DNA of 58,242 nt from Candidatus Nomurabacteria bacterium GW2011_GWC2_42_20 (GCA_000998425.1 LCDG01000008.1:1-58242); one strand, 5' to 3'; positions 3,528-35,932 are shown, counted from the first letter of the stretch. Numbers and translations: made by a program. Notes: generated by a model from the letters alone, not told the origin.

Positions 3528-3941
3528 CTATATTCGCTTCTCTTTGCACGGCACACAACGACAATGTGGCTTTTTGATATACTCATCAAAATACTCCTTG
3601 CCGTAATCATAGTTTAGCTCTTCTCCAGCTTCGATACGTTTTATAGACTTCACGAACACGCGACCACCAACAATCTCAACCTCGCAATTTGGCTTACATG
3701 AGTGATTAATATATCGCGCTGTGTTTGAACGCGCGCTACCATCGATGAGCCTCGTCTTGCTTGTCTCGAATAAATATTTATTTTCTGGGTAATTTTCTAC
3801 TTCTTTTTTCCCATTCACCACCTTCCCAACGTATTCTATGATCCATGTGCCACGCTTAATAGGATCCTCTGCAAAAAGCCCGAGCCCAGCGCTCGACTTC
3901 TTAACCTTGTATTTCACATTTCCTATTTTTGGAATCGGCAT
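3528..3941 (-). CDS. SET-domain protein-lysine N-methyltransferase
   Basis: GLGLFA...WIIEYVG, the NHSCKPNCE (NHSC) motif, the EELNYDY (ELxYDY) motif and a post-SET-like Cys cluster CRCVPCK. Confidence 0.8.
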   Translation of the reverse strand: MPIPKIGNVKYKVKKSSAGLGLFAEDPIKRGTWIIEYVGKVVNGKKEVENYPENKYLFETSKTRLIDGSARSNTARYINHSCKPNCEVEIVGGRVFVKSIKRIEAGEELNYDYGKEYFDEYIKKPHCRCVPCKEKRI

Positions 3942-5295: not shown

Positions 5296-5349
5296 CTATT
5301 TATTATAGTATCGGTGTATAATATAAAGAACAATTTATAAAATAAAAAT

Positions 5350-6594
5350 ATGGAAAACCAAACAAATACAACGGATACAAAAAAGGTTAACGCTTTGGGG
5401 AAACAGCACACAGGAAGAAACACTCTTATTATTGTTGGGGTCATTCTTATTACTATTGGAGTTCTTGGTTCCTTTTTTTCAGCGCAGGCAATTGAAAAAT
5501 TCTTTTGGGAAGCGCGCACAAAATCTGAGATCAAAACTGTTGCTCAGCTGTACAAAAGTCTGGGAGAGCATGATATCTCTGAATGGCAAAATGTCGACGC
5601 AAATGAACGCATCGGAATCTTTGCTCAAAGCATAAGGCAGTACCTTCCAAGCATTGCGGCAATGAAGATATTCACAGTAGACGGGACAATCGCATGGACC
5701 GACCTAAGAAATGTGAAGCCTGGATATAAAAAAATTGGGATTGAAAAAGAAATAAATGAAGTCGAAAGTGCTGGACAAATGATCAAGCCAGCAAGTGAAT
5801 CCACAAAACAAGAACTTATAAAAGAAAACTTGCTTGAGATTTGGACTACTCTAAAAAATCCTCAAGGGAAAACGCTTGGTTATGTTGAGTTATATTTTGA
5901 TAGTACCGATATCACTGCATTTATCAACAAGATTCAATACGCGATATGGGGAACAACCACAATTGTTTTGAGTGTTATCATAACTCTCATAGGTGTAGTG
6001 TTCAAAAAGCAGGATGAGATTATCTTTGCAAAAGCAAACGAGCTTGAAGACATCGTTGAAAAAGCCCCTATTGGCATTTACACTATTGATAATAAAGGCG
6101 TTGTTTCATCCTTAAATCCAAAAATGAGCGAGCTGATTGCTGAAATTAGTTCTGAAAAAATTCTTGGAAAAAATATTTTTGACTCAGAAAATGCGATGAA
6201 AATGAATATTGAAGGAGATATTCGAGAGGCACTTACAGGGGCTCCATTTAACAAAGAAGTAGTGGCAACAGACAAAAATGGAAACGAGGTTTATCGACAA
6301 TATAGCGGTACTCCCCTCTTTGCGACAGACGGGAAAACCGTTGCGCAGGTACTCTTTATGGTTGTTGACATCACAGAACGAAAAAAACTTGAAAATGAGA
6401 TCGCATTGCACACAAAAGACCTAGAAAATCGCGTTGCGGATAGAACAAAGGAGCTTCAAGCGAAAATCGAAGAGCTTGAGCAATTTGAGCGTCTAACTGT
6501 CGGTCGCGAGCTACGCATGACAGAGCTCAAGCAACAAGTCGAGAAAATGCGTATTAAACTTGAAAGTATGGGAGTAGACTACAATTCTCTATAA
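5350..6594 (+). CDS. Membrane-anchored PAS-domain sensor protein with C-terminal coiled coil and no recognisable output domain
   Basis: Two hydrophobic segments (LIIVGVILITIGVLGSFF; TTTIVLSVIITLIGVVF) flank an extracytoplasmic domain. A PAS-like segment (APIGIYTIDNKGVVSSLNP...FMVVDITERKKLE) follows. The protein ends in a heptad-rich helix (RVADRTKELQAKIEELEQFERLTVGRELRMTELKQQVEKM). No H-box or ATPase motifs are present. Confidence 0.7.
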   Translation: MENQTNTTDTKKVNALGKQHTGRNTLIIVGVILITIGVLGSFFSAQAIEKFFWEARTKSEIKTVAQLYKSLGEHDISEWQNVDANERIGIFAQSIRQYLPSIAAMKIFTVDGTIAWTDLRNVKPGYKKIGIEKEINEVESAGQMIKPASESTKQELIKENLLEIWTTLKNPQGKTLGYVELYFDSTDITAFINKIQYAIWGTTTIVLSVIITLIGVVFKKQDEIIFAKANELEDIVEKAPIGIYTIDNKGVVSSLNPKMSELIAEISSEKILGKNIFDSENAMKMNIEGDIREALTGAPFNKEVVATDKNGNEVYRQYSGTPLFATDGKTVAQVLFMVVDITERKKLENEIALHTKDLENRVADRTKELQAKIEELEQFERLTVGRELRMTELKQQVEKMRIKLESMGVDYNSL

Positions 6595-18015: not shown

Positions 18016-18621
18016 TTATCTTAATGTAATCGTTGTGCGAAAAGCGTTCTCGTATACCCAATCTGTACTATTCGAGCTGTACCGAAAAGTCATCGCAACT
18101 TGTATAGCAGTCGTGGTCGCGTTTAAAATAGGGTTATAATTCTCAATTCGTGTAAAGGTTGGCGTATCGACCGTAACAGCACCCCCTGTAACAAGTTCTG
18201 GTTCACTCACATCAACCTTGCGACGAAGTGCGCCAGAAGACACATCATATAGGATTGTAGAACCAGCCACGGTGAGACTAAGTGTATTTGATGGTGTTCC
18301 AAAGATGGGGGTAGAGACCAGCGAAGCATTTTTTATATCTTGCTTTATGCGTTCCGAAGCAAAGCGCACCGCGCTATTTACCTCACTCCGCGCTTCAGAC
18401 TGTCCACGACCTTTTGACAGAGAAATAAAAGCATCTGAAACCACAACCATCAATCCAGAAAGTATTGCAACATATATCAAAAGCTCAAGGAGAGTGACGC
18501 CACGGGAGCGCGAAGCGCTACCACTGACCACTGACCACTGACCTTTAACAGCGGATTTTCGCATAGCGAAAATCCGCTGGTTGTTTGTGGGTTGCAAATT
18601 GTAAATTGTAAGTTGTTTCAT
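18016..18621 (-). CDS. Prepilin-type N-terminal cleavage/methylation-domain protein (pseudopilin)
   Basis: SRSRG|VTLLELLIYVAILSGLMVVV is a class III signal peptide. The start is ambiguous: M1 at 18621 or M20 at 18564. Confidence 0.75.
   Translation of the reverse strand: MKQLTIYNLQPTNNQRIFAMRKSAVKGQWSVVSGSASRSRGVTLLELLIYVAILSGLMVVVSDAFISLSKGRGQSEARSEVNSAVRFASERIKQDIKNASLVSTPIFGTPSNTLSLTVAGSTILYDVSSGALRRKVDVSEPELVTGGAVTVDTPTFTRIENYNPILNATTTAIQVAMTFRYSSNSTDWVYENAFRTTITLR
18521..18615. repeat. Heptamer-repeat leader element: (ccactga)x3, perfect 14-bp hairpin, (nnnnttg)x5
   Basis: ccactga x3 sits at 18521-18541. The hairpin cagcggattttcgc-ata-gcgaaaatccgctg sits at 18549-18579. Period-7 units ttgtttg/tgggttg/caaattg/taaattg/taagttg sit at 18581-18615. 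Confidence 0.8.
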
Positions 18622-26049: not shown

Positions 26050-26580
26050 TCAATATACTGTTCCTATATTCGAAATAGTGAGTGTTTGTGTTGAGCCCTC
26101 AGAATCAATAACGATGGTCGCTGGTGTTGTTGCGCCACTAATTTTTAAAAAAATAATATCCTTGCTTGTCCCTGCAGATGGGTCAGAAAAAGTTATTCCT
26201 GCTGGTAGCGTTGATGTAGAGATTGTTGTACCAGCAGCATAGTCTGTAGCTGTTGAAAAAAGCTCATAATACTGACTTCCACCATTTTCATTTACAATAT
26301 GCGCGCCCCATTTTAACCCATCCTCGCCTATCATTGATTTTGACCGCACATACCGGAGATCGCTCGCAATAGCCTTTGAAGCCGACTGAAGCTCAACATT
26401 CTTAACAAACCCACGATAAAATCCTGCTCCAGCAGAACCCAAAAGAGCAATAATAGAAATAACTATAAGAAGCTCGAGAAGGGAGAACCCGCGGGTACGC
26501 GGAGAATATTGAATATTGAATATTGAATGATGCAAACCAGATTCGTTCAACATTTTTTGTTTTTCTTTTTTTTCTTTCAT
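26050..26580 (-). CDS. Prepilin-type N-terminal domain protein, GspH/FimT-like pseudopilin
   Basis: RTRG|FSLLELLIVISIIALLGSAG, then ...SASKAIASDLRYVRSKS (GspH/FimT-like). The long leader is partly encoded by the heptamer tract. Confidence 0.8.
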   Translation of the reverse strand: MKEKKEKQKMLNESGLHHSIFNIQYSPRTRGFSLLELLIVISIIALLGSAGAGFYRGFVKNVELQSASKAIASDLRYVRSKSMIGEDGLKWGAHIVNENGGSQYYELFSTATDYAAGTTISTSTLPAGITFSDPSAGTSKDIIFLKISGATTPATIVIDSEGSTQTLTISNIGTVY

Positions 26581-26615
26581 ATTCTGTATTCCTTATTCAG
26601 TGTTCTATATTCTAC
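26504..26615. repeat. Inverted heptamer-array element A: (gaatatt)x3(+gaatg) ... (attcnnn)x5
   Basis: gaatatt x3 is perfect at 26504-26524. The units attctgt/attcctt/attcagt/gttctat/attctac lie at 26581-26615. The arms are complementary in kind (GAAT vs ATTC) and flank the start codon region of the pseudopilin gene. Confidence 0.8.
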
Positions 26616-26622
26616 CCAAATT

Positions 26623-27840
26623 CTATGTAAAATGCCCGACAAGCTGATAAATAGGGAGAATGATAGAAAATGCAATAGCCCCAACAAGTAGACCCATAAG
26701 CAATAGGAGGGCTGGTTCTAGAACAGCTGTCAAGTCTTTTAGCTTATTATCAACATCCTCTTCGTAAAAATCAGAAAATGTGACAAGGATTTCAGACAAA
26801 GAACCAGTCCGCTCGCCAACTGTGGTAAGGCTCACAAGGAGTCGCGGGAACAGTTCTGGAAACTTTGACAGGGCATCTGAAATGGAAATACCGTTTTTAA
26901 CATGGTCGACCACCGTGTTGATTGCCACCTCGTATTTTTGGTTCCCGATAGAATTTGCCGATGATTCAAGAGATGACACGGCAGAAAGACCACTCGACAT
27001 AAGGTTGCCGAGGGTACGCGTAAAACGCACGAGAGCTACTTTTTTTACAAGCTCACTTGCCACGGGAATATGTGAAATAACCCAAAAGAAAAATTTCTTT
27101 CCTGTGCGCGTAGTGCGAAAATAAAGAAAAAACCATATTAGAAAGACCAGCACTGCGCCATCCAAAAGAAAACTGTATGTAAGCATACTCGAGAGCCAAA
27201 GGAAGAACTTTGTAACCCACGGAAGCTCTACACCACTTGAAGCAAACGCCTTAGTAAGACGCGGAAGTACAAAAATAAGAAGTAACGAAACCACGCCAAC
27301 AGATGCAGATAAAAGAATTACTGGGTACATCAATGCAGACTTTACCTTTGCGCGAAGCGCGAACTCCTTTGAAAGATACTGGCCAAGCTCTGCAAGCGTA
27401 TGTGAGAGCTGACCAGAAGTCTCCCCTGCTCGCAACATCCCTAGGAAAACTGGAGGAAAATCATTTTTGTAATTCTCAAAACCAGCAGATAATGGTTGGC
27501 CATTTTTCACGAGTGCTTGCACTTCGATGAGCGTATCCTTCATTATCTTTTTTTCAGTATCCGCTATCAAAATATCTAAGGCTTCGACGATAGAAAGTCC
27601 GGCCTTCACCGTAGCAGAAAGATTGCGTACCAAAAACAAAATGTCGACCGATGTTATTTTTTCAAAAAGAGAGATAGACATGCCTAGTCCTCCTTTTCCG
27701 CTACGCAAAGAGCTTATCGAAACCGGCGTTAGGTCTCTGCGAAGCATATAATCAGCAACACCATCACGTGTGTCCGCTTCGTATTCCCCTTTTACAATTG
27801 CTCCGTCGCGATTGTAACCTTCGTAAATAAAAATTGGCAT
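26623..27840 (-). CDS. pilC: Type IV pilus / T2SS platform protein, GspF/PilC family
   Basis: 405 aa with two T2SSF repeats and three TM segments. Typical C-terminal LEPALLLLMGLLVGAIAFSIILPIYQL. Confidence 0.9.
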   Translation of the reverse strand: MPIFIYEGYNRDGAIVKGEYEADTRDGVADYMLRRDLTPVSISSLRSGKGGLGMSISLFEKITSVDILFLVRNLSATVKAGLSIVEALDILIADTEKKIMKDTLIEVQALVKNGQPLSAGFENYKNDFPPVFLGMLRAGETSGQLSHTLAELGQYLSKEFALRAKVKSALMYPVILLSASVGVVSLLLIFVLPRLTKAFASSGVELPWVTKFFLWLSSMLTYSFLLDGAVLVFLIWFFLYFRTTRTGKKFFFWVISHIPVASELVKKVALVRFTRTLGNLMSSGLSAVSSLESSANSIGNQKYEVAINTVVDHVKNGISISDALSKFPELFPRLLVSLTTVGERTGSLSEILVTFSDFYEEDVDNKLKDLTAVLEPALLLLMGLLVGAIAFSIILPIYQLVGHFT

Positions 27841-27850
27841 AACTTTGAGT

Positions 27851-28308
27851 TGAATATTGAATATAGAATGTTGAATTTAGAATAGACTCAAGATTCTACC
27901 TTATATTATAAATTGTTTGTCTTATTAATGAAAGCGTTTAGGAGTTGATGAGAATTTCCTAATTGATTATATATGCCATCAAACTCATCAGCTGGAAGAA
28001 ATGCAACATCTCGAGCTACCAAAAGCTGACTTTCTAGCTCTACAAGGGACCCTCTTGCAACTGAATAAAACTGTAATTTTTCCTTATTACCTCTCCGAGC
28101 AAATCCTTCTGCAATATTTGATGTTATTGAAACCGCAGATCTTCTCATTTGTGACGTTAACCCAAAAATTTCTTCTCGTGGAAATTTTCTTGTTATCTGA
28201 TAAATCATCAAAACAAGTTTATGCGCCTCTTGCCAAACAATAAGATCTGTAAATGCATAGATTTTGGGATTCCTATTCTGCATTTTTATTCGATATTCGA
28301 TATTCTAT
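27851..28308. repeat. Inverted heptamer-array element B, carrying the four-helix-bundle gene
   Basis: The (ngaatnn)x5 units tgaatat/tgaatat/agaatgt/tgaattt/agaatag lie at 27851-27885. The units attcgat/attcgat/attctat lie at 28288-28308. The two arrays are in inverted orientation and bracket CDS 27906-28283. Confidence 0.8.
27906..28283 (-). CDS. Four-helix-bundle protein (23S rRNA intervening-sequence protein / Avd-like family)
   Basis: The 125-aa protein reads LIVWQEAHKLVLMIYQITRKFPREEIFGLTSQMRRSAVSITSNIAEGFAR...FYSVARGSLVELESQLLVA. These are the hallmark motifs of the TIGR02436-type four-helix-bundle family. Confidence 0.85.
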   Translation of the reverse strand: MQNRNPKIYAFTDLIVWQEAHKLVLMIYQITRKFPREEIFGLTSQMRRSAVSITSNIAEGFARRGNKEKLQFYSVARGSLVELESQLLVARDVAFLPADEFDGIYNQLGNSHQLLNAFINKTNNL

Positions 28309-28313
28309 CAAGT

Positions 28314-30029
28314 TTACTCCTTCACCACCCTGAGAATCTCCTCAATAGTAGTAATCCCACGCTCGACTTTATCCAACCCATCCTCAAACATTGTTTTCAT
28401 ACCATCCTCAATAGCCTTTTTTCGCACCTCGCCAACCGTCGCTTCACGCAAGATAAGCTCTCGGACAGAATCATTTATGCGAAAAAGCTCATAGATTCCA
28501 ATCTGCCCCTGAAAACCCGAATTCCCGCACACCTTGCATCCACGCCCACGGTAAAGAGTTGTGGGTATATCTCCTGTCGTGTTGCCAGAGAGCTCCATTT
28601 GCGCCTTAATAAGGCGTATAATCTCTGGGCTTGCTACGTATGACTCTGGGCACGAGGCGCAGATACGACGAACAAGACGCTGAGCGATAACAAGGTTTAT
28701 TGTTGATGAGAGAAGGAACGCTGGCGCACCCATATCTAGAAGGCGTGGCAAAGCAGATGTTGCATCGTTGGTGTGTAGTGATGACACAACAAGATGCCCC
28801 GTAAGAGCAGCGTGAATTGCAATTTCGACTGTCTCGTTGTCACGAATCTCACCAATCATAATAATGTCTGGGTTTTGGCGAAGTAGAGCACGAAGACCGT
28901 TTGCAAAAGTAATCCCAGCTTTTGGATTTACTTGTGTCTGGTTTACACGTGGGAATTCGTACTCAACAGGATCTTCAATGGTTGTAATGTTGACTGATGG
29001 CGTATTAAGAATTTGAAGTATCGCATATAGCGTTGTTGTCTTGCCGTGTCCAGTAGGACCAGTCACAAGCACCATGCCGTGAGGTTTTTTAATTTCATTA
29101 AAAAGAATATCGGTAGCAGCGTCAGAGAACCCAAGATCTTTTAGTGTGAGGGGCCGAGCAGCGCCCTTAAGAATACGCATTTCAACTTTTTCACCATGAA
29201 AGACTGGCATAATGTTTACACGTACATCTATAGACATACCGTCGTCCATATCAAAACGAAAACGACCGTCTTGTGGCATACGATGTTCGTCTATTTGCAT
29301 ACCTGCGAGGATCTTTACACGCGCCACAAGCACAGGAGCAATAGCTTTTGGCAAACTTACAATCTCCTGCATGATGCCATCAATACGAAAGCGTATAAGT
29401 AATTCCTTTTCGAGTGGTTCAAAATGAATGTCTGAAGTATTTAGGCTTGCTGCATGATCAATGACATTATCGAGAATACTCACAATAGGAACAGCTGCGG
29501 CTCCCTTTGTAACATCCGCCTCGTCCGCGACTGACATGGACTGCTCAACATTTTCAGAAATAATTTGATCAAAATTAATACCAACTTTTTTCTTGTACTG
29601 CTTGAGCCCATAACGAAGGCTTGGTAGCGTGGTCAAATACACATCAACCCATACGTTAAGCTTCGCGCGGACGTACTCGATAGTCTCGTAGTCAAAAGGG
29701 TCAAGCATCGCGAGTTTGGCTCGCCCTTGCTCCTTGTCGTATGCAAACAAAACTATATTTTTTGACTTTGCGTAAACCTCTGGGATAAGCTCGAGTATCT
29801 CATGGTCTATTGTCTCTGCTTCCTTTTTAAGGTTTACAATCGGCGCTGAATAGTATGGGCTTAAAAGCTCGGTAAAATAATCCTCGGGAATCTTGCCACT
29901 GCCAATGAGCACATTGGCTATAGACTGTCCTGAACGACGAGACTCCTCGGCCACAGCATCAAAATCTTCATCGGTAATAAGTCCAGACTCAAGCGCGATT
30001 TCTCTTAATTTATCTTTTGAGATGTGCAT
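28314..30029 (-). CDS. pilB: Type IV pilus assembly ATPase, GspE/PilB family
   Basis: T2SSE N-terminal domain, Walker A VTGPTGHGKTTT, Asp box, Walker B, His box and the tetracysteine CASC...CKVCGNSG. Confidence 0.92.
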   Translation of the reverse strand: MHISKDKLREIALESGLITDEDFDAVAEESRRSGQSIANVLIGSGKIPEDYFTELLSPYYSAPIVNLKKEAETIDHEILELIPEVYAKSKNIVLFAYDKEQGRAKLAMLDPFDYETIEYVRAKLNVWVDVYLTTLPSLRYGLKQYKKKVGINFDQIISENVEQSMSVADEADVTKGAAAVPIVSILDNVIDHAASLNTSDIHFEPLEKELLIRFRIDGIMQEIVSLPKAIAPVLVARVKILAGMQIDEHRMPQDGRFRFDMDDGMSIDVRVNIMPVFHGEKVEMRILKGAARPLTLKDLGFSDAATDILFNEIKKPHGMVLVTGPTGHGKTTTLYAILQILNTPSVNITTIEDPVEYEFPRVNQTQVNPKAGITFANGLRALLRQNPDIIMIGEIRDNETVEIAIHAALTGHLVVSSLHTNDATSALPRLLDMGAPAFLLSSTINLVIAQRLVRRICASCPESYVASPEIIRLIKAQMELSGNTTGDIPTTLYRGRGCKVCGNSGFQGQIGIYELFRINDSVRELILREATVGEVRKKAIEDGMKTMFEDGLDKVERGITTIEEILRVVKE

Positions 30030-30037
30030 ATTGAACT

Positions 30038-30114
30038 GAATGTGGAATATAGAATTTTGAATATTGAATAGGGAAACGAAATGTATCAGTATTATATAAT
30101 ATTCAATATTCTAT
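30038..30114. repeat. Inverted heptamer-array element C (no cargo)
   Basis: The units gaatgtg/gaatata/gaatttt/gaatatt/gaatagg/gaaacga lie at 30038-30079. The units attcaat/attctat lie at 30101-14. gaatattgaata and tattcaatattc are exact reverse complements. Confidence 0.8.
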
Positions 30115-30174
30115 CCAATCAGTATATCACACCTATTTTTAATAAGTACAACTTAGCTGTGGATACTGACGTCT

Positions 30175-30837
30175 TTAGAGCATAAGAAGTGGATAGAGGT
30201 TTAATGCGGTAAGAATTTTTACAGTAAACAGCAATGCGATTGGAGCAGAAAAAAGAAATGTGGGCGCAAGTGGGATTCGTTCAATTCCATAAAAAATGCG
30301 AGCCACAATAGAGAAAATGACCGCAGAAATAAGCCCTATTGGCAAAAGTACAACAACCCCTGGCCACCCGGAGATAAGCATTGCAAGGACAATAAGCATG
30401 ATATCTCCTTCTCGAAAATTATACGCTCGGTATCGAGAGCGAGTAATGAGGAAAAGATAAAAAAGTCCTGTAATTACGAGTAGTGCGACAGTACTTAAGA
30501 AAAAATTTTGAAATGAATAGAAAGCAAAGTACCCATGAGTGCCAACAAAAAATGGTCGCATCCACTCAAGCAAATAAGGAAAAGGCACTTCAGGAGAAAG
30601 GGCTGATGAAAGAAGTATCCTTGTGAACTCACTTTTACCCCAAACAACATACTGCCCCCAAGTAGCGAGGATCCCGTACAAAAGGTGTATGCCGGTAGCA
30701 ATAGTAGCCAGCAAACCGTAAGAAACATTTTTTAGTATCTGCGGACGAGTGAGACGCACAACAACTATACTAAAAAATAACAGCCATATTGTAAGAGTAA
30801 TTGTATTAAAATTTGTAAGAAGAAAATCTAACGACAT
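30175..30837 (-). CDS. Polytopic membrane protein, possible divergent A24 prepilin peptidase
   Basis: About 6-7 TM helices. One GD motif, FREGDIMLIVLAMLISGWPG, resembles the second catalytic-Asp box (GDxKLxxxxGxxLG). The gene sits between the pilin and pilB genes. No clear first catalytic Asp box was seen. Confidence 0.4.
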   Translation of the reverse strand: MSLDFLLTNFNTITLTIWLLFFSIVVVRLTRPQILKNVSYGLLATIATGIHLLYGILATWGQYVVWGKSEFTRILLSSALSPEVPFPYLLEWMRPFFVGTHGYFAFYSFQNFFLSTVALLVITGLFYLFLITRSRYRAYNFREGDIMLIVLAMLISGWPGVVVLLPIGLISAVIFSIVARIFYGIERIPLAPTFLFSAPIALLFTVKILTALNLYPLLML

Positions 30838-30855
30838 AGCCTTATCATGCTAACA

Positions 30856-30901
30856 AAAAAACACACAGCTTGTCTAGATACTAGACAAGCTGTGTGTTTT
30901 T
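30856..30901. terminator. Strong rho-independent terminator after the pilin genes
   Basis: aaaaacacacagcttgtctag-ata-ctagacaagctgtgtgttttt is a perfect ~21-bp stem that includes the A/T runs. It lies immediately 3' of pilin CDS 30911-31678 on the minus strand. Confidence 0.85.
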
Positions 30902-30910
30902 AAAATTTAA

Positions 30911-31678
30911 CTAGAATGCTCCAGATGCAGGTAGTAAGTATAAACTATTTCCTGATTCGTACATGCCATTGTTGTCGCCACCATCTTTTGACATTTTATT
31001 ATCCTCGGACGTATAGGCATTACTTTCAAACACAGCATTTATTTCAAAAATGTATGCTGGTTTGCCAGATCCCACAGTCGCTGATGTTCCATTTTGACAT
31101 GCATAACGGTATACAAGATCAGAAGCATTTGGGGTTGTAGCACTAACCATATTTACTGGATCAACTGGGTAACTTGAAATTGGCGTACCGCCAGTTAGAG
31201 CCTTGAGGTTTACTGGAATCCAACCAGTACCGTCAACCTTGCTTACTGATCCTGCTACCCCGTTGCGACACCAGCTACCACTTGGACCAAAGGCCGCAGT
31301 ACCACCAGCTGCATCAATTCCTGCCGTAGGTCCAACACCGGTACATGCTACTGTTCCGTCATAACTATACGAAATCTTTGCTGAAGCGTTTGCTGTAGTC
31401 ACACCAGCAGGTGTTGTCGAAGTAAGACATACCGAGCCATATCCATCCAAGCTTGGTGTCGATGATGCAGTGAGAATGATGCCAAGCGCTGTTTTAACAG
31501 ACTTCAAGTCAGAAATACGCTGAGCATCGCGAGCTTTTTTGAGTGTTTCTGCAGGGTTCAACATAAACACAAGCGCGATTGATAAGATTGCAATAATCGC
31601 TATAACAATAAGGAGCTCGAGGAGAGTGAAGCCTTTCTCGTGTTTTTCTTTTAAATTAAAATTTATGAATGATGTCAT
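30911..31678 (-). CDS. Type IV pilin (major pilin candidate 2)
   Basis: EKG|FTLLELLIVIAIIAILSIALVFMLNPAETLKKARDAQRISDLKSV. It is paralogous to 31720-32439, including the shared C-terminal motifs GTGWIPVN...LTGG.PIS..PVDPVN. Confidence 0.9.
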   Translation of the reverse strand: MTSFINFNLKEKHEKGFTLLELLIVIAIIAILSIALVFMLNPAETLKKARDAQRISDLKSVKTALGIILTASSTPSLDGYGSVCLTSTTPAGVTTANASAKISYSYDGTVACTGVGPTAGIDAAGGTAAFGPSGSWCRNGVAGSVSKVDGTGWIPVNLKALTGGTPISSYPVDPVNMVSATTPNASDLVYRYACQNGTSATVGSGKPAYIFEINAVFESNAYTSEDNKMSKDGGDNNGMYESGNSLYLLPASGAF

Positions 31679-31719
31679 GATTGTTTAGGATTGCTTAGAG
31701 ATAATTTAAAAAAATATTA

Positions 31720-32439
31720 TTAGAAGTCTACTCCGCCAGCGGTAGCCCCCATAATCTTTAGGTTTGTGCCTACTTCATAATAGTTTGTACTATTACCACC
31801 ATCCGCAGTTAATTTATTTTCCGAAGATGTGTAGGCAATACTTTCAAGTACTGCGTCCATCTCAAATGTAAGTGGTGATGCTGCGCATGCATAACGATAT
31901 GCCAGCGTTGCGCTTGTAATAGATGTTACTGAGTCGCCTGTGCCAAGGGCATTTACTGGATCAACTGGGAGATTTGAGATTGGTGAACCACCTGTTAGTG
32001 TGTCAAAGTTTACTGGAATCCAGCCAGTGCCATCTGTAAGAGATGGACTTGCTACGTTTACCGATGCGGGAACGCTAGCAGAACCACCATCTAGTGTAGT
32101 GTCAGCAAGGGTGCCTGCTGATGTAGGAAGTGAGTAAAAAATATCGTCTCCAGAAACATAAGCGCTGGTTGGACTTGCCTTGCATGCTGTGTTTGTGGTG
32201 AGACTACCAAGGTATGGGGTGCTTGTACTAGTCAAATAAAGACCGAGAGCGGTTTTCATTGTGCTTAAATCTGAAATACGCTGAGCGTCGCGTGACTTAC
32301 GGAGAGCTTCTGCAGGGTTTAGAACGAGTACGAGAGCGACTGACAAAATTGCAATAATCGAAATAACAATAAGGAGTTCGAGGAGGGTAAAGCCAGCGTC
32401 GCGCTTCTTTTTTACATTCATATTTAAATTCAAATTCAT
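31720..32439 (-). CDS. Type IV pilin (major pilin candidate 1)
   Basis: RDAG|FTLLELLIVISIIAILSVALVLVLNPAEALRKSRDAQRISDLSTM. Confidence 0.9.
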   Translation of the reverse strand: MNLNLNMNVKKKRDAGFTLLELLIVISIIAILSVALVLVLNPAEALRKSRDAQRISDLSTMKTALGLYLTSTSTPYLGSLTTNTACKASPTSAYVSGDDIFYSLPTSAGTLADTTLDGGSASVPASVNVASPSLTDGTGWIPVNFDTLTGGSPISNLPVDPVNALGTGDSVTSITSATLAYRYACAASPLTFEMDAVLESIAYTSSENKLTADGGNSTNYYEVGTNLKIMGATAGGVDF

Positions 32440-32470
32440 ATTTATTAAATTATTCGTAATTAATGCTTTT

Positions 32471-32500
32471 ATTGTACCAAATAATAATTAAAAAACACAA
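32471..32500 (-). promoter_or_regulatory. Putative sigma70-type promoter for the pilin genes
   Basis: On the minus strand: TTGTGT (32500-32495), an 18-nt spacer, then extended -10 TGGTACAAT (32479-32471). It lies about 30 nt upstream of the pilin ATG. Confidence 0.3.
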
Positions 32501-32527
32501 TAGTACTGTGGATAACTACACTGGGCA

Positions 32528-32666
32528 GAATATTGAATGTAGAATGTTGAAGATAGAATGAATGCAGGAAATTCGTTTGCTTCGCTAAGCGGCGGGCTTT
32601 TGCCGTATGCAAAAACACCGCACCATTCTATATTCTATATTCTATATTCGAAATTCTACATTCTAT
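32528..32666. repeat. Inverted heptamer-array element D (60-nt GC-richer core)
   Basis: gaat occurs in phase 7 at 32528/35/42/(49)/56. attc occurs in phase 7 at 32625/32/39/46/53/60, and attctat x3 is perfect at 32625-32645. The last unit overlaps the response-regulator stop codon. Confidence 0.85.
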
Positions 32667-33040
32667 CCAAGATAGCCCATTGCCTTGTTTATCACGTCTT
32701 GTATTGAATAGTCTACTTTTACCAAATATTCATTTGCCCCCAATGCAAGCGCGCGATCTTGATCTGTCTTTTGACCAAGGTTTGAAAGAATAATAACAGG
32801 TATATTTGCAAGCTCTGGATTTTTCTTTATCTCCTCAAGGACACCGAAACCATCTTTTTTAGGAATCATAAGGTCAAGTAAAATAACGTCTGGCTTCTCA
32901 GCGGTAATTTTTACAATCGCCTCCTCACCATCGCGCGCCAAGGATACATCAATCCCCTCTTTCGCGAATTTGATTTCATATACCTTTGAAATATGCTCGT
33001 CGTCCTCGACAACCATTATCTTTTTTTTGTTAGTATCCAT
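32663..33040 (-). CDS. Single-domain response regulator (CheY-like receiver only)
   Basis: VVEDDE, the phospho-acceptor context VILLDLMIPKKDG, IILSN and EYLVK. There is no output domain. Confidence 0.9.
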   Translation of the reverse strand: MDTNKKKIMVVEDDEHISKVYEIKFAKEGIDVSLARDGEEAIVKITAEKPDVILLDLMIPKKDGFGVLEEIKKNPELANIPVIILSNLGQKTDQDRALALGANEYLVKVDYSIQDVINKAMGYLG

Positions 33041-33045
33041 ATAGT

Positions 33046-33435
33046 TTATGTATAGCTCAGAACCTTCCCAACAAGGTCATCCAGGCCGTAATCTCCCTTT
33101 ACTAAATAATCAGTAGCACCGAGCTTGAGCGCTGTGTCTCTTGTATTTTCGTCCCCCGACACAGAGCAAACAACCACTTTCATATCCCTGTATTTCTCAT
33201 CCTCGCGAACCTTTGCAAGGAACTCTAGGCCGTTCATCCCTGGCAAAAGTATGTCTAGCCAGATCACAAAGATATCAGGATGCTCAGAATTAAGCACTTC
33301 GAGCGCATCCTCAGCGCGCATAGTAGAAATGACACGATGACCTTTTTTCTCAAGCATTAGAGTTATTGCGTGATTTAGCGCGCTGTCATCTTCAAGGAGA
33401 AGTATTGTTTTACGATTTTCTAATTGCTCTGTCAT
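33046..33435 (-). CDS. Single-domain response regulator (CheY-like receiver only)
   Basis: LLLEDD, IWLDILLPGMNG, VVCSVSG and DYLVKG. There is no output domain. Confidence 0.9.
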   Translation of the reverse strand: MTEQLENRKTILLLEDDSALNHAITLMLEKKGHRVISTMRAEDALEVLNSEHPDIFVIWLDILLPGMNGLEFLAKVREDEKYRDMKVVVCSVSGDENTRDTALKLGATDYLVKGDYGLDDLVGKVLSYT

Positions 33436-33445
33436 TTTAGTCTAA

Positions 33446-35932
33446 TTATTCCTTACCTTCTATCTTACCATGCTCATTATTATCGGCAACCTCTGTATAA
33501 AGAGGAACGGTAAAGAAGAAGCTTGTGCCCTTGCCATCCTCGGTCTCAAACCACACTCTCCCGCCCCATGAAATAACCAGGTCTTTTACAAGCGCAAGGC
33601 CTAGTCCTGAGCCGTCTGGTACCTGCGCTCGCGCATTTTCAGCACGGAAGAATTTCGAAAAGATGCGTGAACGCTGAGCCTCGGGAATACCGATACCGTT
33701 GTCGTGAACCATATATACGACCTCCTTGCCTTCGTCGCCTAGCCACCATTTTATCTCGATAATTCCTTTTGGATTTGTATAACGAATTGCATTAGAAATA
33801 AGATTTAAAATAACCTGTCTCAACGTAAGCGAATCGAGCCAAACGCTTACTGGCGCGCCTTCTGGTGGAACAACCGTAAGGGCAAGCTCTTTCATGTCTA
33901 TCTGTGGAGCAAGCTCTTTTGTTATCTCAGCAGTAAATGAGCCAAGTTCTACTTGTGTCCTGTCAGATTTCAATTTTCCACTCTCGACACGCGATATACC
34001 AAGGAGTAAGTCCACTGTCTGATACAAGCGCTCTGCTCCCCCATGTACCTCCTTCATAAAATCTTTTTGTGTCTCGTTTAACGCACCTGCATCCTCCGAC
34101 AAGAGCATTTCAGAATACCACCTAATAGAGGTTAATGGCGTGCGAAGCTGATGCGATGCCACAGAGATAAAGCCTGATTTTGCATCATCAAGCTCACGCT
34201 CTTTTGATGCGTCACGAAATGTAATAACAACACCAGAGAGCCCGCCACCAAGCGGAGAAATGGAGAACACTATCGGAGTTTTTTCTGGATGTTTCTCTGT
34301 GGAAATAGAGAAGTCTTGATCAAGGGTACCTACAACAACCTTTTTTGTCAAAAATACTTCTTCAGTTGGCCACATACTGTGCGGGATGACATCTTTTTGT
34401 TTTTTCCACAGAGTAACAATTGTGCGTAGATCCTTGCCAACAAGCTCCCCCATCTTCATTCCAAACATTTCCATTGCTATATTGTTTATAAGTGTAATAC
34501 TATACGTACCATCAACAAGAATGAGTCCATCTCCAATAGAAGCGAGAATTGTCTGCAGTCTATATCCCTCCTCCTCAAGTCGTTCCTTTGCCTTCCACGA
34601 GTCTTCTAGCAAGTTCAATGTGGCTCTCTTTGATTCATCAAGAAATTTTTCCTGCTTCTCGTGTTTTTCGATATCCGTTTGCAAGAGCATGGCCTTTTCC
34701 TCGATCTGGATCTTTGATTTTTGCAATTCTATTTGTGAAGAACGAAGTGATGTGATCATCGTATTGAACATAGAGGCAAGCGCCCCGATTTCATCCTTCG
34801 TTTTTACGCCTACCGTTACACTTAGATCGCCATCCCTTACACGTTTTGCAACATTTACAATATTACTGAGGTGAGCTAGTGGTTTCCGAATAAAAAAAGT
34901 GGCAATAAGGATTCCGATAACAATAACACTGATCCCGCCTGCAAGTGTAATACGATTGATAATGTCGAGTGGCGCAAAAATCTCGTCCTTTTGAACCTCC
35001 ACAATTAGCACCAGCCCGTCGTCAGGAAAGCACATCGATGCACCTAGTACGCGAACCCCTTGAAAATTTTCGTATTCAGCGGTTATTTCTTTTCCGTTAT
35101 CAATACATTCACGCACTGGGAGAGTATCCACCTTTTGCATTAGCCGAACATTTCTCATATAGCGGGATGGTGTTACCATTACGCTCTCGCTATTTACCAA
35201 ATATATATCGGAAGTTTTGTAGCTTTCCAAAAATGCTGTTCTTGAAACTCGCGTTTCGGGAATATCACCATCTGCCTCAAATACGTCGACACCAAGGGTA
35301 TGAGCGATCTGGTCTGTATTTGCAAAGTGAATGAGGATTACCGCATCAAACTCCTCAGGGACTCCTTCTTCGTTCAACTCAAAAACTCTCATAGCGACGT
35401 GCGTCATAGGCTCGTCCGACTCGTCCGACTCGAAAACAAAACTTTTTACAAAAACCTCTCCAAACGATGAGACTATCGCTTTACTAAAGTGGTGAGCTCC
35501 TAATTTTAATTCTTCGTCCAATTCATTCGTGCCGATGCGGTCTGCCTTTGTAGATGCGATAACGATGCCGTTTTTGTCTAGCAAATCAACAAGGAAGACT
35601 GTTTTATGATATGGCATTTTTGACTTGGTAAAATAAGTCAAAAAGTCCTTTTCATAACGAGCTCGTTCTGATGTGCCAGCCTTGCTACTGAGCACTTTCT
35701 TTGAAAGGTCCTGAACCTTCGTATCGGAGAGCCAGTTTGTAGCGTGAATCTTTAAACCATCCAAAAATGCAAAGTATGTGCCTTCGCTCTGCTCGGCTAT
35801 GACAAAGAAATCAGTGGCTATTTGTTTTCTAAATGTGTTACTGACAACGCTTTCAATAAAAAGAACAATGACTGCTGTCACTACAATAAAAAATATTCCA
35901 AAGAAGAGCGTTGTTTTTGTACGCAGATTCAT
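33446..35932 (-). CDS. Sensor histidine kinase (TM - large extracytoplasmic domain - TM - HAMP - coiled coil - PAS - HisKA - HATPase_c)
   Basis: HAMP (IRKPLAHLSNIVNVAKRVRDGDLSV...KDEIGALASMFNTM), H-box SHQLRTPLTSI, N-box LISNAIRYT, G1 DNGIGIP and G2 GSGLGLALV. Confidence 0.9.
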   Translation of the reverse strand: MNLRTKTTLFFGIFFIVVTAVIVLFIESVVSNTFRKQIATDFFVIAEQSEGTYFAFLDGLKIHATNWLSDTKVQDLSKKVLSSKAGTSERARYEKDFLTYFTKSKMPYHKTVFLVDLLDKNGIVIASTKADRIGTNELDEELKLGAHHFSKAIVSSFGEVFVKSFVFESDESDEPMTHVAMRVFELNEEGVPEEFDAVILIHFANTDQIAHTLGVDVFEADGDIPETRVSRTAFLESYKTSDIYLVNSESVMVTPSRYMRNVRLMQKVDTLPVRECIDNGKEITAEYENFQGVRVLGASMCFPDDGLVLIVEVQKDEIFAPLDIINRITLAGGISVIVIGILIATFFIRKPLAHLSNIVNVAKRVRDGDLSVTVGVKTKDEIGALASMFNTMITSLRSSQIELQKSKIQIEEKAMLLQTDIEKHEKQEKFLDESKRATLNLLEDSWKAKERLEEEGYRLQTILASIGDGLILVDGTYSITLINNIAMEMFGMKMGELVGKDLRTIVTLWKKQKDVIPHSMWPTEEVFLTKKVVVGTLDQDFSISTEKHPEKTPIVFSISPLGGGLSGVVITFRDASKERELDDAKSGFISVASHQLRTPLTSIRWYSEMLLSEDAGALNETQKDFMKEVHGGAERLYQTVDLLLGISRVESGKLKSDRTQVELGSFTAEITKELAPQIDMKELALTVVPPEGAPVSVWLDSLTLRQVILNLISNAIRYTNPKGIIEIKWWLGDEGKEVVYMVHDNGIGIPEAQRSRIFSKFFRAENARAQVPDGSGLGLALVKDLVISWGGRVWFETEDGKGTSFFFTVPLYTEVADNNEHGKIEGKE

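What the first reader, a model, noticed from the sequence alone, without database searches (positions are those of the whole stretch)
26504..32666. Family of inverted heptanucleotide tandem arrays (GAATNNN)n...(ATTCNNN)n at four junctions of the pilus operon
Four intergenic or 5' regions of the same minus-strand operon share one architecture. Each has an array of 3-6 period-7 units with a GAAT core. A spacer follows, then an array of 2-6 period-7 units with the complementary ATTC core.

The four elements are A (26504-26529 / 26581-26615), B (27851-27885 / 28288-28308), C (30038-30079 / 30101-30114) and D (32528-32562 / 32625-32666). On the transcribed minus strand the order is always the same: the GAAT-type array is 5' and the ATTC-type array is 3'. 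Each pair can therefore fold into a long AU-rich stem.

The sequence just inside the plus-strand GAAT array is also similar in A and D (gaatgatgcaaaccagattcgtt vs gaatgaatgcaggaaattcgtt). This argues for common descent rather than chance low complexity. I saw no such arrays in the other ~40 kb of the window.

I do not recognise this as a described repeat class. It is too short-period for CRISPR and is not a REP/BIME-like palindrome. Candidate roles are RNase III-type processing sites that segment the polycistronic pilus mRNA, binding arrays for an RNA/DNA-binding protein, or scars and landing pads of a small mobile cassette.
Basis: seen in the sequence. Interest (0 to 1): 0.78.

Follow-up and report, generated by a model that had tools for sequence, protein, structure and literature searches.

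The report
Heptamer-repeat hairpins bracketing an IVS-protein gene
The four repeat pairs are real and are the hairpin arms of "intervening sequence" type insertions, one still carrying its small four-helix-bundle protein gene between pilB and pilC, and the same repeat-gene-repeat design surrounds this gene family in several bacterial phyla, linking it to the unexplained excess of 7-base repeats in bacterial genomes.

Summary
GAATNNN x3 occurs 15 times in the window, all inside the four elements (0.02 expected).

Element B is not a spacer. Its two arms bracket a 125-aa PF05635/TIGR02436 gene (23S-rRNA intervening-sequence protein, IVP/S23p), and this arrangement is kept in relatives at 96, 82 and 73% protein identity.

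In 69 metagenomic IVP loci, 54 have a period-7 array upstream, 51 downstream and 46 both, 38 of them with complementary cores. The 5' arm has G>C in 51/52 and the 3' arm C>G in 50/51. Periods 6, 8 and 9 show no such enrichment. Nine of ten distant IVP genes on plasmids of cyanobacteria, Bacteroidota and Alphaproteobacteria show the same design.

The Coxiella 23S IVS carries tandem heptamers before its S23p start codon and is cut there by RNase III. The elements are therefore IVS-type heptamer hairpins. B is a full cassette in an mRNA. A, C and D are ORF-less versions, like cyanobacterial STRR and Xanthomonas GGGAATC pairs.

RNase III processing of the transcript is the most likely function, but it is inferred, not shown. 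I did not find the family-wide IVP-heptamer link in the searchable literature.

The parts
27850..28311 (-). Element B: a complete IVS-type cassette between pilB (stop at 28314) and pilC (ATG at 27840). The 5' arm is TTGATAGAATATCGAATATCGAATAAAA (28311-28284), ending 0 nt before the ORF's ATG. The IVP ORF is 28283-27906. Next comes a local hairpin, AGAAT-N10-ATTCT. The 3' arm is (ATTCNNN)5 (27885-27850), ending 10 nt before the pilC ATG.
   Evidence: Sequence. PF05635 at E 7e-37, and TIGR02436 at 119 bits against a cut-off of 24. The arms form 16 pairs at -13.3 kcal/mol, z -4.7. The same architecture is found in L121, L122 and L127.
27906..28283 (-). The IVP/S23p gene: 125 aa, a four-helix-bundle protein and a homologue of the pentameric XCC0516 (PDB 2GSC).
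   Evidence: It is the only IVP in the window.
26504..26625 (-). Element A: an ORF-less heptamer hairpin between pilC and a minor pilin. The 5' arm (26625-26578) starts with the pilC stop codon, which is the TAG of its first TAGAAT unit. The A-rich spacer and the 3' arm, (ATTCAAT)3-ATTC (26531-26504), lie inside the long leader-peptide coding region of the pilin ORF 26050-26580.
   Evidence: It is conserved in L121 and L122, and in L127 as a GAAC/GTTC variant. The reading frame stays open through it in all four loci.
30038..30118 (-). Element C: an ORF-less heptamer hairpin. Its 3' arm ends 8 nt before the pilB ATG (30029).
   Evidence: 22 nt, 86%. (z -3.7). (19 pairs, -16.6 kcal/mol). It is reduced to a remnant in the relative L121, which is 84% identical.
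32527..32668 (-). Element D: the longest ORF-less heptamer hairpin. Its 5' arm contains the stop codon (TAG, 32665-32663) of the response-regulator gene. The loop carries its own GC-rich stem. The 3' arm ends about 90 nt before the first major pilin gene.
   Evidence: 34 nt, 82%. (z -4.7). (26 pairs, -23.4 kcal/mol). It is absent from L121, where unrelated sequence fills the site.
18520..18616 (-). Element E, a related but atypical element. On the minus strand it reads (ACAAYTT)~5, then a perfect 12-bp hairpin, then (GGTCAGT)3. It lies in the leader-coding 5' end of the pilin-like ORF 18016-18621. Its arms are not complementary.
30857..30901 (-). An intrinsic terminator with a perfect 21-bp stem, after the second major pilin gene. 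It divides the region into at least two transcription units.

Best explanation
The four elements are heptamer-array hairpins of the 'intervening sequence' (IVS) type.

**Anatomy.** Each element has a 5' arm of 3-6 G-containing heptamers (T[AT]GAATA), a loop, and a 3' arm of the complementary C-containing heptamers.
- In B the loop still holds the gene that typifies large IVSs, a PF05635/S23p four-helix-bundle protein. B is therefore a full IVS cassette wedged into an mRNA between pilB and pilC instead of into 23S rRNA.
- A, C and D are ORF-less copies of the same local family. They compare with the roughly 100-nt ORF-less IVSs of enterobacteria (my own knowledge), with cyanobacterial STRR hairpins and with Xanthomonas GGGAATC inverted pairs.

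**Mechanism (inferred).** In the transcript the two arms pair into an imperfect AU-rich duplex of 16-26 bp. RNase III cuts this duplex. The cut excises the insert or splits the polycistronic RNA at the gene junctions. Because the arms abut the upstream stop codon and the downstream start codon, the insertion is tolerated, and it may set the relative stability or translation of the flanking pilus cistrons.

**Origin.** The cassette is a selfish or neutral element that spreads or turns over on evolutionary time scales.

**Shown:** the anatomy, the gene identity, conservation of the design across phyla, the complementarity of arms within a locus, and turnover of C and D.
**Inferred:** RNA-level pairing in vivo, RNase III cleavage, and derivation of A, C and D from the cassette.
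For: **In the window**
- 15 of 15 GAAT x3 matches lie inside the elements.
- B encloses a PF05635/TIGR02436 gene.

**In close relatives**
- pilB-[GAAT array]-IVP-[ATTC array]-pilC is kept in L121, L122 and L127, at 96, 82 and 73% protein identity, while unit number and sequence drift.
- Element A is also kept in these loci.

**In metagenomic IVP loci (67-69 used, depending on the filter)**
- Period-7 arrays: 5.5/kb in IVP flanks, 1.15/kb in other intergenic DNA, 0.15/kb in coding DNA. Periods 6, 8 and 9: at most 0.31/kb.
- Of 69 loci, 54 have an upstream array, 51 a downstream array and 46 both. In 38 of the 46 the cores are complementary: GAAT/ATTC, GTAT/ATAC, GATT/AATC.
- Own-partner arm duplexes average -30.7 kcal/mol, against -21.6 for arms paired with partners from other loci (p 8e-13).
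- Polarity: G>C upstream in 51/52 and C>G downstream in 50/51.
- The upstream array ends a median of 1 nt before the IVP ATG. The upstream neighbour is on the same strand in 47/58 loci and the downstream neighbour in 45/53.
- Neighbouring proteins fall into 75 clusters, so the cassette is dispersed among many gene contexts.

**In other phyla**
- 9 of 10 plasmid-borne IVP genes from Nostoc, Stanieria, Geminocystis, Picosynechococcus, Pseudanabaena, Calothrix, Riemerella and Azospirillum have inverted heptamer flanks.
- The same holds for a Chitinophagaceae locus, L074.
- A GGGAATC repeat overlaps the start codon of Xanthomonas XCC0516, the homologue solved as PDB 2GSC.

**Experimental precedents**
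- Coxiella 23S IVS: three tandem GACAGAT heptamers precede the S23p ATG, inside the terminal stem. RNase III cleavage was mapped to the first repeat (PMC4990558).
- H. influenzae hmw: an (ATCTTTC)n 5'-UTR hairpin is processed by RNase III (PMC12721329).
Against: - No transcript data exist for this organism. Cleavage is argued by analogy only.
- There is no strand asymmetry of the kind G-U pairing would leave if the sense RNA were under selection. The sense duplex is more stable in 29 loci and the antisense in 38. In the window the plus-strand (antisense) folds of A and D are more stable than the sense folds.
- The full 475-nt fold of B is not better than shuffles (z -0.73), although the arms do pair within it.
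- Arms of different window elements pair with each other as well as with their own partner. Alternative long-range pairings are therefore possible.
- Only 2 of 120 genome loci chosen for GAAT arrays contain an IVP gene. Descent of ORF-less arrays from cassettes is not demonstrated.
- Distant arrays share a core with the IVP arms of the same locus only modestly more often than expected: 16/49 against 9.1 +/- 3.0.
- No RNase III gene lies in the window. This is uninformative either way.
Confidence: 0.6

Rival explanations
1. The arrays are binding sites for the IVP protein. The pentameric ring binds about five consecutive heptamers on single-stranded RNA or DNA, in the way ring proteins such as TRAP or HutP read periodic triplets. 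Binding would autoregulate IVP translation or help the element to copy itself. This can coexist with RNase III cleavage.
For: - The XCC0516 homologue is deposited as five chains and is described as a homopentameric toroid (Lin 2006, cited in PMC4990558).
- Arrays have 3-6 units, with a mode of 4-5.
- The 5' array abuts the IVP start codon, a median of 1 nt away.
- IVP proteins that share a heptamer class are more alike than those that do not: 61.1 against 57.3% identity, with 0 of 2000 permutations reaching the observed difference.
- The family is homologous to the DGR protein Avd (weak hits). Avd is a nucleic-acid-binding partner of the DGR reverse transcriptase (my own knowledge).
Against: - No binding data exist.
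- The class effect is small and is confounded with host phylogeny.
- Most arrays genome-wide have no IVP gene nearby.
- In Coxiella, S23p appears not to be made and its ORF is decaying (PMC4990558).
Confidence: 0.25
2. The elements are DNA-level mobile elements, MITE-like. The arrays act as terminal inverted repeats or cruciform sites for a recombinase supplied in trans, and RNA folding is incidental.
For: - The cassette sits in many unrelated gene contexts.
- C and D are present in the window but absent or reduced in a relative 84-87% identical.
- Complementarity is equal on both strands.
- In relative L127, a gene with a weak Y1-transposase hit, flanked by other hairpins, lies next to pilB.
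Against: - There is no transposase in the window.
- No target-site duplications are visible at A-D.
- At the D site the relative carries unrelated sequence, not a clean empty site.
- The B insertion is stable in position down to 73% protein identity.
- The arrays fill operon junctions exactly, from stop codon to start codon, co-oriented with transcription. This fits selection at the RNA or translation level.
Confidence: 0.2
3. The arrays are slippage-prone simple-sequence repeats that switch pilus genes on and off (phase variation). In element A, a 7-nt unit change inside the pilin leader-coding region would shift the reading frame.
For: - The 3' arm of A is a perfect (GAATATT)3.6 repeat inside the leader ORF.
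- Heptamer copy number varies between Coxiella strains.
- Heptamer copy number drives hmw phase variation in H. influenzae.
- Pilus and adhesin genes are classic phase-variable loci (my own knowledge).
Against: - Most arrays are imperfect, with 66-85% matches. This disfavours slippage.
- Five contigs of one population from different samples carry identical arrays.
- The same arrays flank IVP genes in operons unrelated to surface structures.
- The model does not explain the inverted pairing.
Confidence: 0.1
4. The arrays are chance low complexity in AT-rich intergenic DNA, or operator/promoter arrays for a DNA-binding regulator of the pilus operon.
For: - TAGAAT and TTGAAT resemble -10 and -35 hexamers.
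- Two response-regulator genes lie just upstream.
Against: - 15 matches against 0.02 expected.
- The enrichment is specific to period 7.
- Arms are complementary within each locus.
- The heptamer sequence differs between loci (GTAT, GATT, GGAGTCA and others) while the architecture is kept.
- Both response regulators are receiver-only proteins without a DNA-binding domain.
- The promoter scan finds fewer sites than in shuffles.
Confidence: 0.02

Closest known systems
23S rRNA intervening sequences (IVS) carrying an S23p/PF05635 ORF (Coxiella burnetii, Leptospira, Brucella)
   Same: - The same gene family lies in the loop.
- Terminal inverted repeats form the stem.
- Tandem heptamers of the purine-rich strand sit directly before the ORF's start codon.
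- The ORF is in the sense orientation within the host transcript.
- RNase III cleavage in the repeat stem has been shown for Coxiella (PMC4990558).
   Different: - Here the host transcript is a protein-coding pilus operon (the pilB-pilC junction), not helix 25 or 45 of 23S rRNA.
- Both arms are multi-unit arrays with a different heptamer (GAATNNN against GACAGAT).
- ORF-less copies sit at neighbouring gene junctions.
Intergenic heptameric simple-sequence repeats: cyanobacterial STRR, Xanthomonas GGGAATC repeats, Beggiatoaceae TAACTGA repeats
   Same: - They are tandem 7-nt units in intergenic DNA close to stop and start codons.
- Xanthomonas has 70-75 convergent inverted pairs built on a GAAT-containing unit (PMC4692102).
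- STRR hairpins lie between hupS and hupL and have been proposed to stabilise transcripts or couple translation (PMC2670836).
   Different: - Those papers do not connect the repeats to PF05635 genes or to IVSs. G-quadruplex or regulatory roles were proposed instead.
- TAACTGA repeats are mostly direct repeats, not inverted pairs (PMC4679880).
- Here one pair encloses an IVP gene.
H. influenzae hmw1A 5'-UTR heptamer hairpin (PMC12721329)
   Same: - A heptamer array in the transcribed leader of an adhesin gene forms one arm of a long hairpin.
- RNase III cleaves that hairpin and thereby sets expression.
   Different: - Only the left arm is a repeat array there; the right arm is a G-rich tract.
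- That array is long, perfect and hypervariable.
- It has no associated ORF.
Avd of diversity-generating retroelements
   Same: - It is a homologous four-helix-bundle fold that forms a pentamer.
- Weak hits: bAvd at E 5.6e-5 and NF033474 at 27 bits.
   Different: - The score is far below the equivalog cut-off of 80 bits.
- There is no reverse transcriptase and no template/variable repeat pair in the window.
MITEs and REP/BIME elements
   Same: They are short, ORF-less, hairpin-forming intergenic insertions present in several copies.
   Different: - The arms here are tandem heptamer arrays, not unique terminal inverted repeats.
- No target-site duplication is seen.
- No cognate transposase or RAYT lies nearby.

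Membership tests
IVS element (intervening sequence with S23p ORF) | Contains a PF05635 / TIGR02436 (S23p, IVP) ORF, in sense orientation within the host transcript | tested here: met
   This applies to element B only. PF05635 at E 7e-37; TIGR02436 at 119 bits against a cut-off of 24. The ORF is co-oriented with pilB and pilC.
IVS element (intervening sequence with S23p ORF) | Terminal inverted repeats able to form a stem that encloses the insert | tested here: met
   The arms pair with 16-26 bp. In 67 IVP loci, own-partner duplexes average -30.7 kcal/mol against -21.6 for permuted partners.
IVS element (intervening sequence with S23p ORF) | Tandem heptamers immediately upstream of the ORF's start codon (as in the Coxiella IVS) | tested here: met
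   B: GAATATC GAATATC GAATAAA, followed directly by ATG. In other loci the array ends a median of 1 nt before the ATG. The Coxiella description is in PMC4990558.
IVS element (intervening sequence with S23p ORF) | Inserted in 23S rRNA (helix 25 or 45) | tested here: not met
   The elements lie at junctions of protein-coding genes. There are no rRNA or other Rfam matches in the window.
IVS element (intervening sequence with S23p ORF) | Excised from the primary transcript by RNase III | not testable with these tools
   This needs transcript end-mapping or an in-vitro cleavage assay.
Heptameric SSR / STRR-type intergenic repeats | Head-to-tail repeats of a 7-nt unit, located mainly between genes | tested here: met
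   TRF reports period 7 at all eight arms. The window has 13 period-7 core arrays, against 1-6 for periods 5, 6, 8, 9 and 10.
Heptameric SSR / STRR-type intergenic repeats | Convergent inverted pairs (as in the Xanthomonas GGGAATC class) | tested here: met
   All four window elements are convergent pairs. In other genomes, GAAT-first pairs number 18 and ATTC-first pairs 5. See PMC4692102.
MITE | Unique terminal inverted repeats plus a target-site duplication | tested here: not met
   No direct duplication flanks A-D (inspection). At the D site the relative has unrelated sequence, not an empty site.
DGR accessory protein Avd | Scores as the Avd equivalog and is adjacent to a reverse transcriptase and a TR/VR pair | tested here: not met
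   NF033474 scores 27 bits against a cut-off of 80. No reverse transcriptase is found among the window's ORFs.
CRISPR array | Repeats of 25-40 nt separated by unique spacers of similar length | tested here: not met
   The units are contiguous 7-mers.

The most novel reading that the evidence does not exclude
PF05635 'IVS protein' genes together with their inverted heptamer arms form one widespread cassette class. It inserts into any transcribed stem or gene junction, whether in rRNA, operons or cas loci. The pentameric protein reads the heptamer arrays and promotes their formation or spread. ORF-less derivatives of this cassette would then account for much of the long-noted excess of intergenic heptamer repeats in bacteria: STRR, GGGAATC pairs, and elements A, C and D here.
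Probability: 0.25. Interest if true: 0.85.

Novelty: new variant of a known kind. Interest (0 to 1): 0.62.

Why it matters
Three puzzles have been treated separately:
- what bacterial rRNA intervening sequences and their S23p ORF are for;
- what the very common orphan 'four helix bundle protein' (TIGR02436) genes do;
- why 7-nt tandem repeats are over-represented between bacterial genes.

This locus, with the roughly 80 related loci examined, shows one shared architecture. A G-strand heptamer array abuts the start codon, the gene follows, and the complementary array comes after it. This holds in Patescibacteria, Cyanobacteriota, Bacteroidota and Pseudomonadota.

The shared design turns the three puzzles into one testable question: RNase III processing and/or pentamer-heptamer recognition.

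There are also practical consequences for annotation:
- It affects how operons in CPR genomes should be annotated.
- It may explain why IVP genes score as 'CRISPR-associated', since they are wedged into cas operons.
- It warns that long pilin 'leader peptides' can be encoded by repeat elements.

Tried and rejected
1. **IVP genes next to GAAT arrays in other genomes.** I searched 120 genome loci chosen for GAAT arrays. tblastn with the single protein found 1. An HMM built from 120 homologues found 2. Most arrays are therefore ORF-less, and 'every array marks an IVP gene' is rejected.
2. **Known RNA family.** Rfam at gathering threshold gave nothing. At E<=1 it gave only weak miRNA-hairpin noise at element C and at the terminator.
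3. **Promoter or terminator role of the arrays.** The scan found fewer promoter-like sites than in shuffles. The only strong terminator is at 30857-30901.
4. **Stop codons in the 5' arm, open frames in the 3' arm.** This holds in the window, but 3' arms elsewhere contain TAA (for example ATTCTAA units). It is dropped as a general rule.
5. **G-U strand asymmetry as a sign of selection on the sense RNA.** No signal: the sense duplex is more stable in 29 loci and the antisense in 38.
6. **Unit-number polymorphism within a population.** None was seen in five contigs.
7. **Target-site duplications.** None were seen at A-D.
8. **Ralph & McClelland 1993 (Leptospira IVS).** I tried to read it, but the paper is not held.
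9. **Prior description of the IVP-heptamer link.** Literature searches found only the Coxiella remark.
10. **Element-specific pairing inside the window.** Rejected: arms of A-D cross-pair as well as they pair with their own partner.

Full report
**1. The observation**

The sequence at 26.5-32.7 kb contains the arrays as described.
- GAATNNNGAATNNNGAAT matches 15 times on both strands. Every match lies in elements A-D. Dinucleotide shuffles give 0.02.
- Tandem Repeats Finder calls period 7 at all eight arms.
- A generic scan for a 4-mer core recurring three or more times finds 13 period-7 arrays in the 58-kb window, against 1-6 for periods 5, 6, 8, 9 and 10. Nine of the 13 are the arms of A-D.
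- The arms are complementary. D is 34 nt at 82% and C is 22 nt at 86%.
- Arm-arm RNA duplexes have 16-26 pairs at -13 to -23 kcal/mol, with z of -2.3 to -4.8 against shuffled arms.
- Whole-element folds of A, C and D give z of -2.1, -3.7 and -4.7 on the transcribed strand.

Two points of logic need correcting.
- (GAAT)n...(ATTC)n is its own reverse complement, so 'GAAT arm 5' on the transcribed strand' holds for either strand. What is informative is that all four elements are GAAT-first.
- A perfect 21-bp terminator at 30857-30901 splits the region into at least two transcription units.

**2.

The genes on the minus strand are as follows:

| Feature | Coordinates |
|---|---|
| Histidine kinase | 33446-35932 |
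| Receiver-only response regulator | 33046-33435 |
| Receiver-only response regulator | 32663-33040 |
| Element D | 32527-32668 |
| Major pilin | 31720-32439 |
| Major pilin | 30911-31678 |
| Terminator | 30857-30901 |
| 220-aa protein | 30175-30837 |
| Element C | 30038-30118 |
| PilB ATPase | 28314-30029 |
| Element B | 27850-28311 |
| PilC | 26623-27840 |
| Element A | 26504-26625 |
| Minor pilin | 26050-26580 |

The 400-nt 'spacer' of B is a 125-aa ORF (27906-28283).
- It matches PF05635, '23S rRNA-intervening sequence protein', at E 7e-37.
- It matches TIGR02436, 'four helix bundle protein', at 119 bits against a cut-off of 24.
- Its closest solved relative is XCC0516 of Xanthomonas campestris (PDB 2GSC, five chains, E 3.5e-22).

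The GAAT arm ends directly at the ORF's ATG. The ATTC arm ends 10 nt before the pilC ATG. In A and D, the stop codon of the upstream gene is the TAG of the first TAGAAT unit.

**3. Relatives of this locus**

The IVP protein has thousands of homologues, the closest in Parcubacteria/Patescibacteria. Contigs encoding homologues at 96%, 82% and 73% identity all have pilB-IVP-pilC.
- In each, a GAAT-type array abuts the IVP start codon and an ATTC-type array follows the stop codon. Unit number and the three variable bases differ between loci.
- Element A is also present in all three. In L127 it occurs as a GAAC/GTTC variant.
- In all four loci the reading frame stays open from an upstream ATG, through the spacer and the 3' arm, into the G|FSLLE prepilin cleavage site. 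The 3' arm is therefore translated as part of an unusually long pilin leader.
- C and D behave differently in L121, which is 84-87% identical in DNA. C is a remnant there, and the D site is filled by unrelated sequence.
- So B and A are old and stable, while C and D turn over.

**4. Is the gene-array association general?**

A scan of metagenome contigs returned 80 loci encoding relatives at 53-82% identity.

| Period | IVP flanks (within 150 nt of the ORF), arrays per kb | Other intergenic DNA | Coding DNA |
|---|---|---|---|
| 6 | 0.00 | 0.19 | 0.13 |
| 7 | 5.51 | 1.15 | 0.15 |
| 8 | 0.31 | 0.31 | 0.01 |
| 9 | 0.13 | 0.22 | 0.14 |

(Table.)

- Of 69 distinct loci with full flanks, 54 have an upstream array, 51 a downstream array and 46 both. 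In 38 of the 46 the cores are reverse complements.
- The heptamer differs between loci. Upstream cores are GAAT in 26, GTAT in 9 and GATT in 6. Downstream cores are ATTC in 28, ATAC in 10 and AATC in 6.
- Arms pair better with their own partner (-30.7 kcal/mol) than with arms from other loci (-21.6; p 8e-13).
- Polarity is almost invariant. Upstream arrays have G>C in 51/52 and downstream arrays have C>G in 50/51.
- The cassette usually runs in the same direction as its neighbours: the upstream neighbour in 47/58 loci and the downstream neighbour in 45/53.
- The median distance from the upstream stop codon to the IVP ATG is 33 nt, so the array is the whole spacer. Arrays have 3-6 units.
- The neighbouring genes fall into 75 clusters among 109 proteins. 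Only three loci are pilB/pilC sites. The cassette is therefore dispersed.

**5. Other phyla**

tblastn against plasmids found IVP genes at 31-48% identity, mostly in Nostocales. Of ten fetched, nine have inverted heptamer flanks:

| Source | 5' arm / 3' arm units |
|---|---|
| Nostoc | GGAGTCA / CTGACTC |
| Stanieria and Nostoc PCC 7120 | GGCAGAA / CTTCTGC |
| Riemerella | GGTTTAA / AACCTTG |
| Geminocystis | AAAAGGG / CCCTTTT |
| Azospirillum | CAGAGGA / TCCGTCC |
| Picosynechococcus (between cas10 and cmr3) | GGAGATA / TCTCC |
| Pseudanabaena (between cas6 and cas4) | (AAAGCTA)15 upstream, (AAAGCCA)9 downstream in direct orientation; TTAGC-type inverted copies further upstream |

- A Chitinophagaceae locus has GGGAATA x6 upstream and CCCTATT x3 downstream.
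- The supplement of Rehm et al. 2015 lists a GGGAATC repeat that overlaps the start codon of XCC0516 itself.
- In Shine-Dalgarno-using organisms the 5' arms are SD-like (GGAG).

**6. Link to the literature**

- **Coxiella IVS.** Warrier et al. 2016 (PMC4990558) describe the 428-nt IVS in helix 45 of the 23S rRNA. It has a 28-bp terminal inverted-repeat stem and an S23p ORF preceded by AGAAGA and three tandem GACAGAT heptamers. Copy number varies between strains. RNase III cleavage was shown in vitro and mapped by RACE to the start of the first repeat. Apart from its host RNA, this is the anatomy of element B.
- **H. influenzae hmw.** Rapun-Araiz et al. 2025 (PMC12721329) show that the (ATCTTTC)n array in the hmw adhesin 5'-UTR forms one arm of a hairpin cut by RNase III.
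- **ORF-less heptamer arrays are known but unexplained.**
  - STRR hairpins lie between hupS and hupL (PMC2670836).
  - Xanthomonas has 70-75 convergent GGGAATC pairs (PMC4692102).
  - Beggiatoaceae carry TAACTGA repeats (PMC4679880).
- **Breadth of GAAT arrays.** These span more than 20 phyla, and many are inverted pairs. GAAT-first outnumbers ATTC-first 18 to 5.
- **Prior description.** I found no paper that states PF05635 genes in general are bracketed by inverted heptamer arrays. The library is incomplete, so this is absence of evidence only.

**7. Interpretation**

The best-supported reading is that A-D are IVS-type heptamer hairpins. B is a full cassette living in an mRNA. A, C and D are ORF-less members of the same local family.

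The committed mechanism is as follows. The arms pair in the transcript, RNase III cuts the stem, and the insert is thereby excised or the junction is cut. This makes the insertion tolerable at operon junctions and may tune the flanking cistrons.

The anatomy, the family-wide conservation and the arm co-variation are shown. RNA pairing in vivo and cleavage are inferred from the two experimental precedents.

Evidence that weakens the RNA reading:
- There is no sense/antisense asymmetry.
- The full fold of B is unremarkable.
- Arms of different elements cross-pair.
- Only 2 of 120 array-selected loci carry an IVP gene.
- Distant arrays share a core with the IVP arms of the same locus only modestly more often than expected: 16/49 against 9.1 +/- 3.0.

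**8. Rivals**

- **Binding of the pentameric IVP to the roughly five-unit arrays.** This is attractive. Support comes from the pentamer structure, the position of the array at the start codon, and higher IVP similarity within a heptamer class (0.611 against 0.573, 0/2000 permutations). It is untested and is compatible with the main model.
- **A DNA-level MITE-like element.** This fits the dispersal and turnover. It lacks a transposase, target-site duplications and a clean empty site.
- **Phase variation.** This is conceivable for the perfect array in the leader of A. It is not supported by the imperfect arrays or by five identical population contigs.
- **Chance, or an operator role.** This is excluded.

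**9. Verdict**

The feature is real and is not a new repeat class. It belongs with IVS elements and heptameric SSR hairpins.

What appears new is twofold: an IVS-type cassette sitting in a protein-coding operon, and the family-wide, cross-phylum coupling of PF05635 genes to polarised inverted heptamer arrays.

I rate it a new variant of a known kind, of moderate-to-high interest.

Noticed in passing
window 18520-18616 (minus strand), inside ORF 18016-18621: A fifth period-7 element with different units. On the minus strand it reads (ACAAYTT)~5, then a perfect hairpin AGCGGATTTTCGC/GCGAAAATCCGCT, then (GGTCAGT)3. It lies in the roughly 40-codon leader of another pilin-like protein (N_methyl, E 2.6e-4). 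Unlike A-D, its two arms are not complementary.
   Followed up: partly
window 26504-26580, and L121, L122, L127: The spacer and 3' heptamer arm of element A are in frame with the minor pilin. They encode a long leader (MKEKKEKQKMLNESGLHHSIFNIQYSPRTRG|FSLLE). The frame is kept open in three diverged relatives even though the repeat units differ. A repeat element has in effect become signal-peptide coding sequence.
   Followed up: partly
window 32507-32517 and 30157-30167 (plus strand CTGTGGATAAC / GCTGTGGATAC): A DnaA-box-like motif ([T/G]TATCCACAG on the minus strand) lies about 35-40 nt upstream of -10-like hexamers, ahead of the major pilin gene and ahead of element C/pilB. It is conserved in L121. 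It may be a site for a transcription factor.
   Followed up: no
L211 (Pseudanabaena plasmid, cas6-IVP-cas4) and L212 (Picosynechococcus plasmid, cas10-IVP-cmr3): IVP cassettes with heptamer arms are wedged inside CRISPR-cas operons. This could explain why '23S rRNA IVP' scores as CRISPR-associated in large-scale surveys (PMC10910872), without implying any functional link.
   Followed up: no
L127 329-1051 and flanks 245-335, 1040-1110: In the 73%-identity relative, a gene with a weak Y1 (IS200/RAYT-like) transposase hit sits just upstream of pilB. It is flanked by a different hairpin repeat (GTTGAAGCCAGGCTTCAAC). A second IVP gene follows the minor pilin in the same locus (5282-5674).
   Followed up: no
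window arms of A-D: Arms of different elements pair with one another as well as, or better than, with their own partner. For example, the A 5' arm with the B 3' arm gives -22.2 kcal/mol, against -13.1 with its own 3' arm. Long-range alternative pairings across the operon transcript are therefore possible.
   Followed up: partly
window 27886-27905, 26532-26553, 32563-32580: In A, B and D, each 3' arm is preceded by a single inverted unit that forms a mini-hairpin ([A/T]GAAT-N10-12-ATTC). It is conserved in the pilB-pilC cassettes of L121, L122 and L127.
   Followed up: partly
window 3528-3941 (minus strand): A 137-aa SET-domain protein (PF00856, E 3.7e-24), in what is evidently a Parcubacteria-like chromosome segment that also carries rpoB, rpoC, dnaG and sigA at 45.5-55.4 kb.
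   Followed up: no
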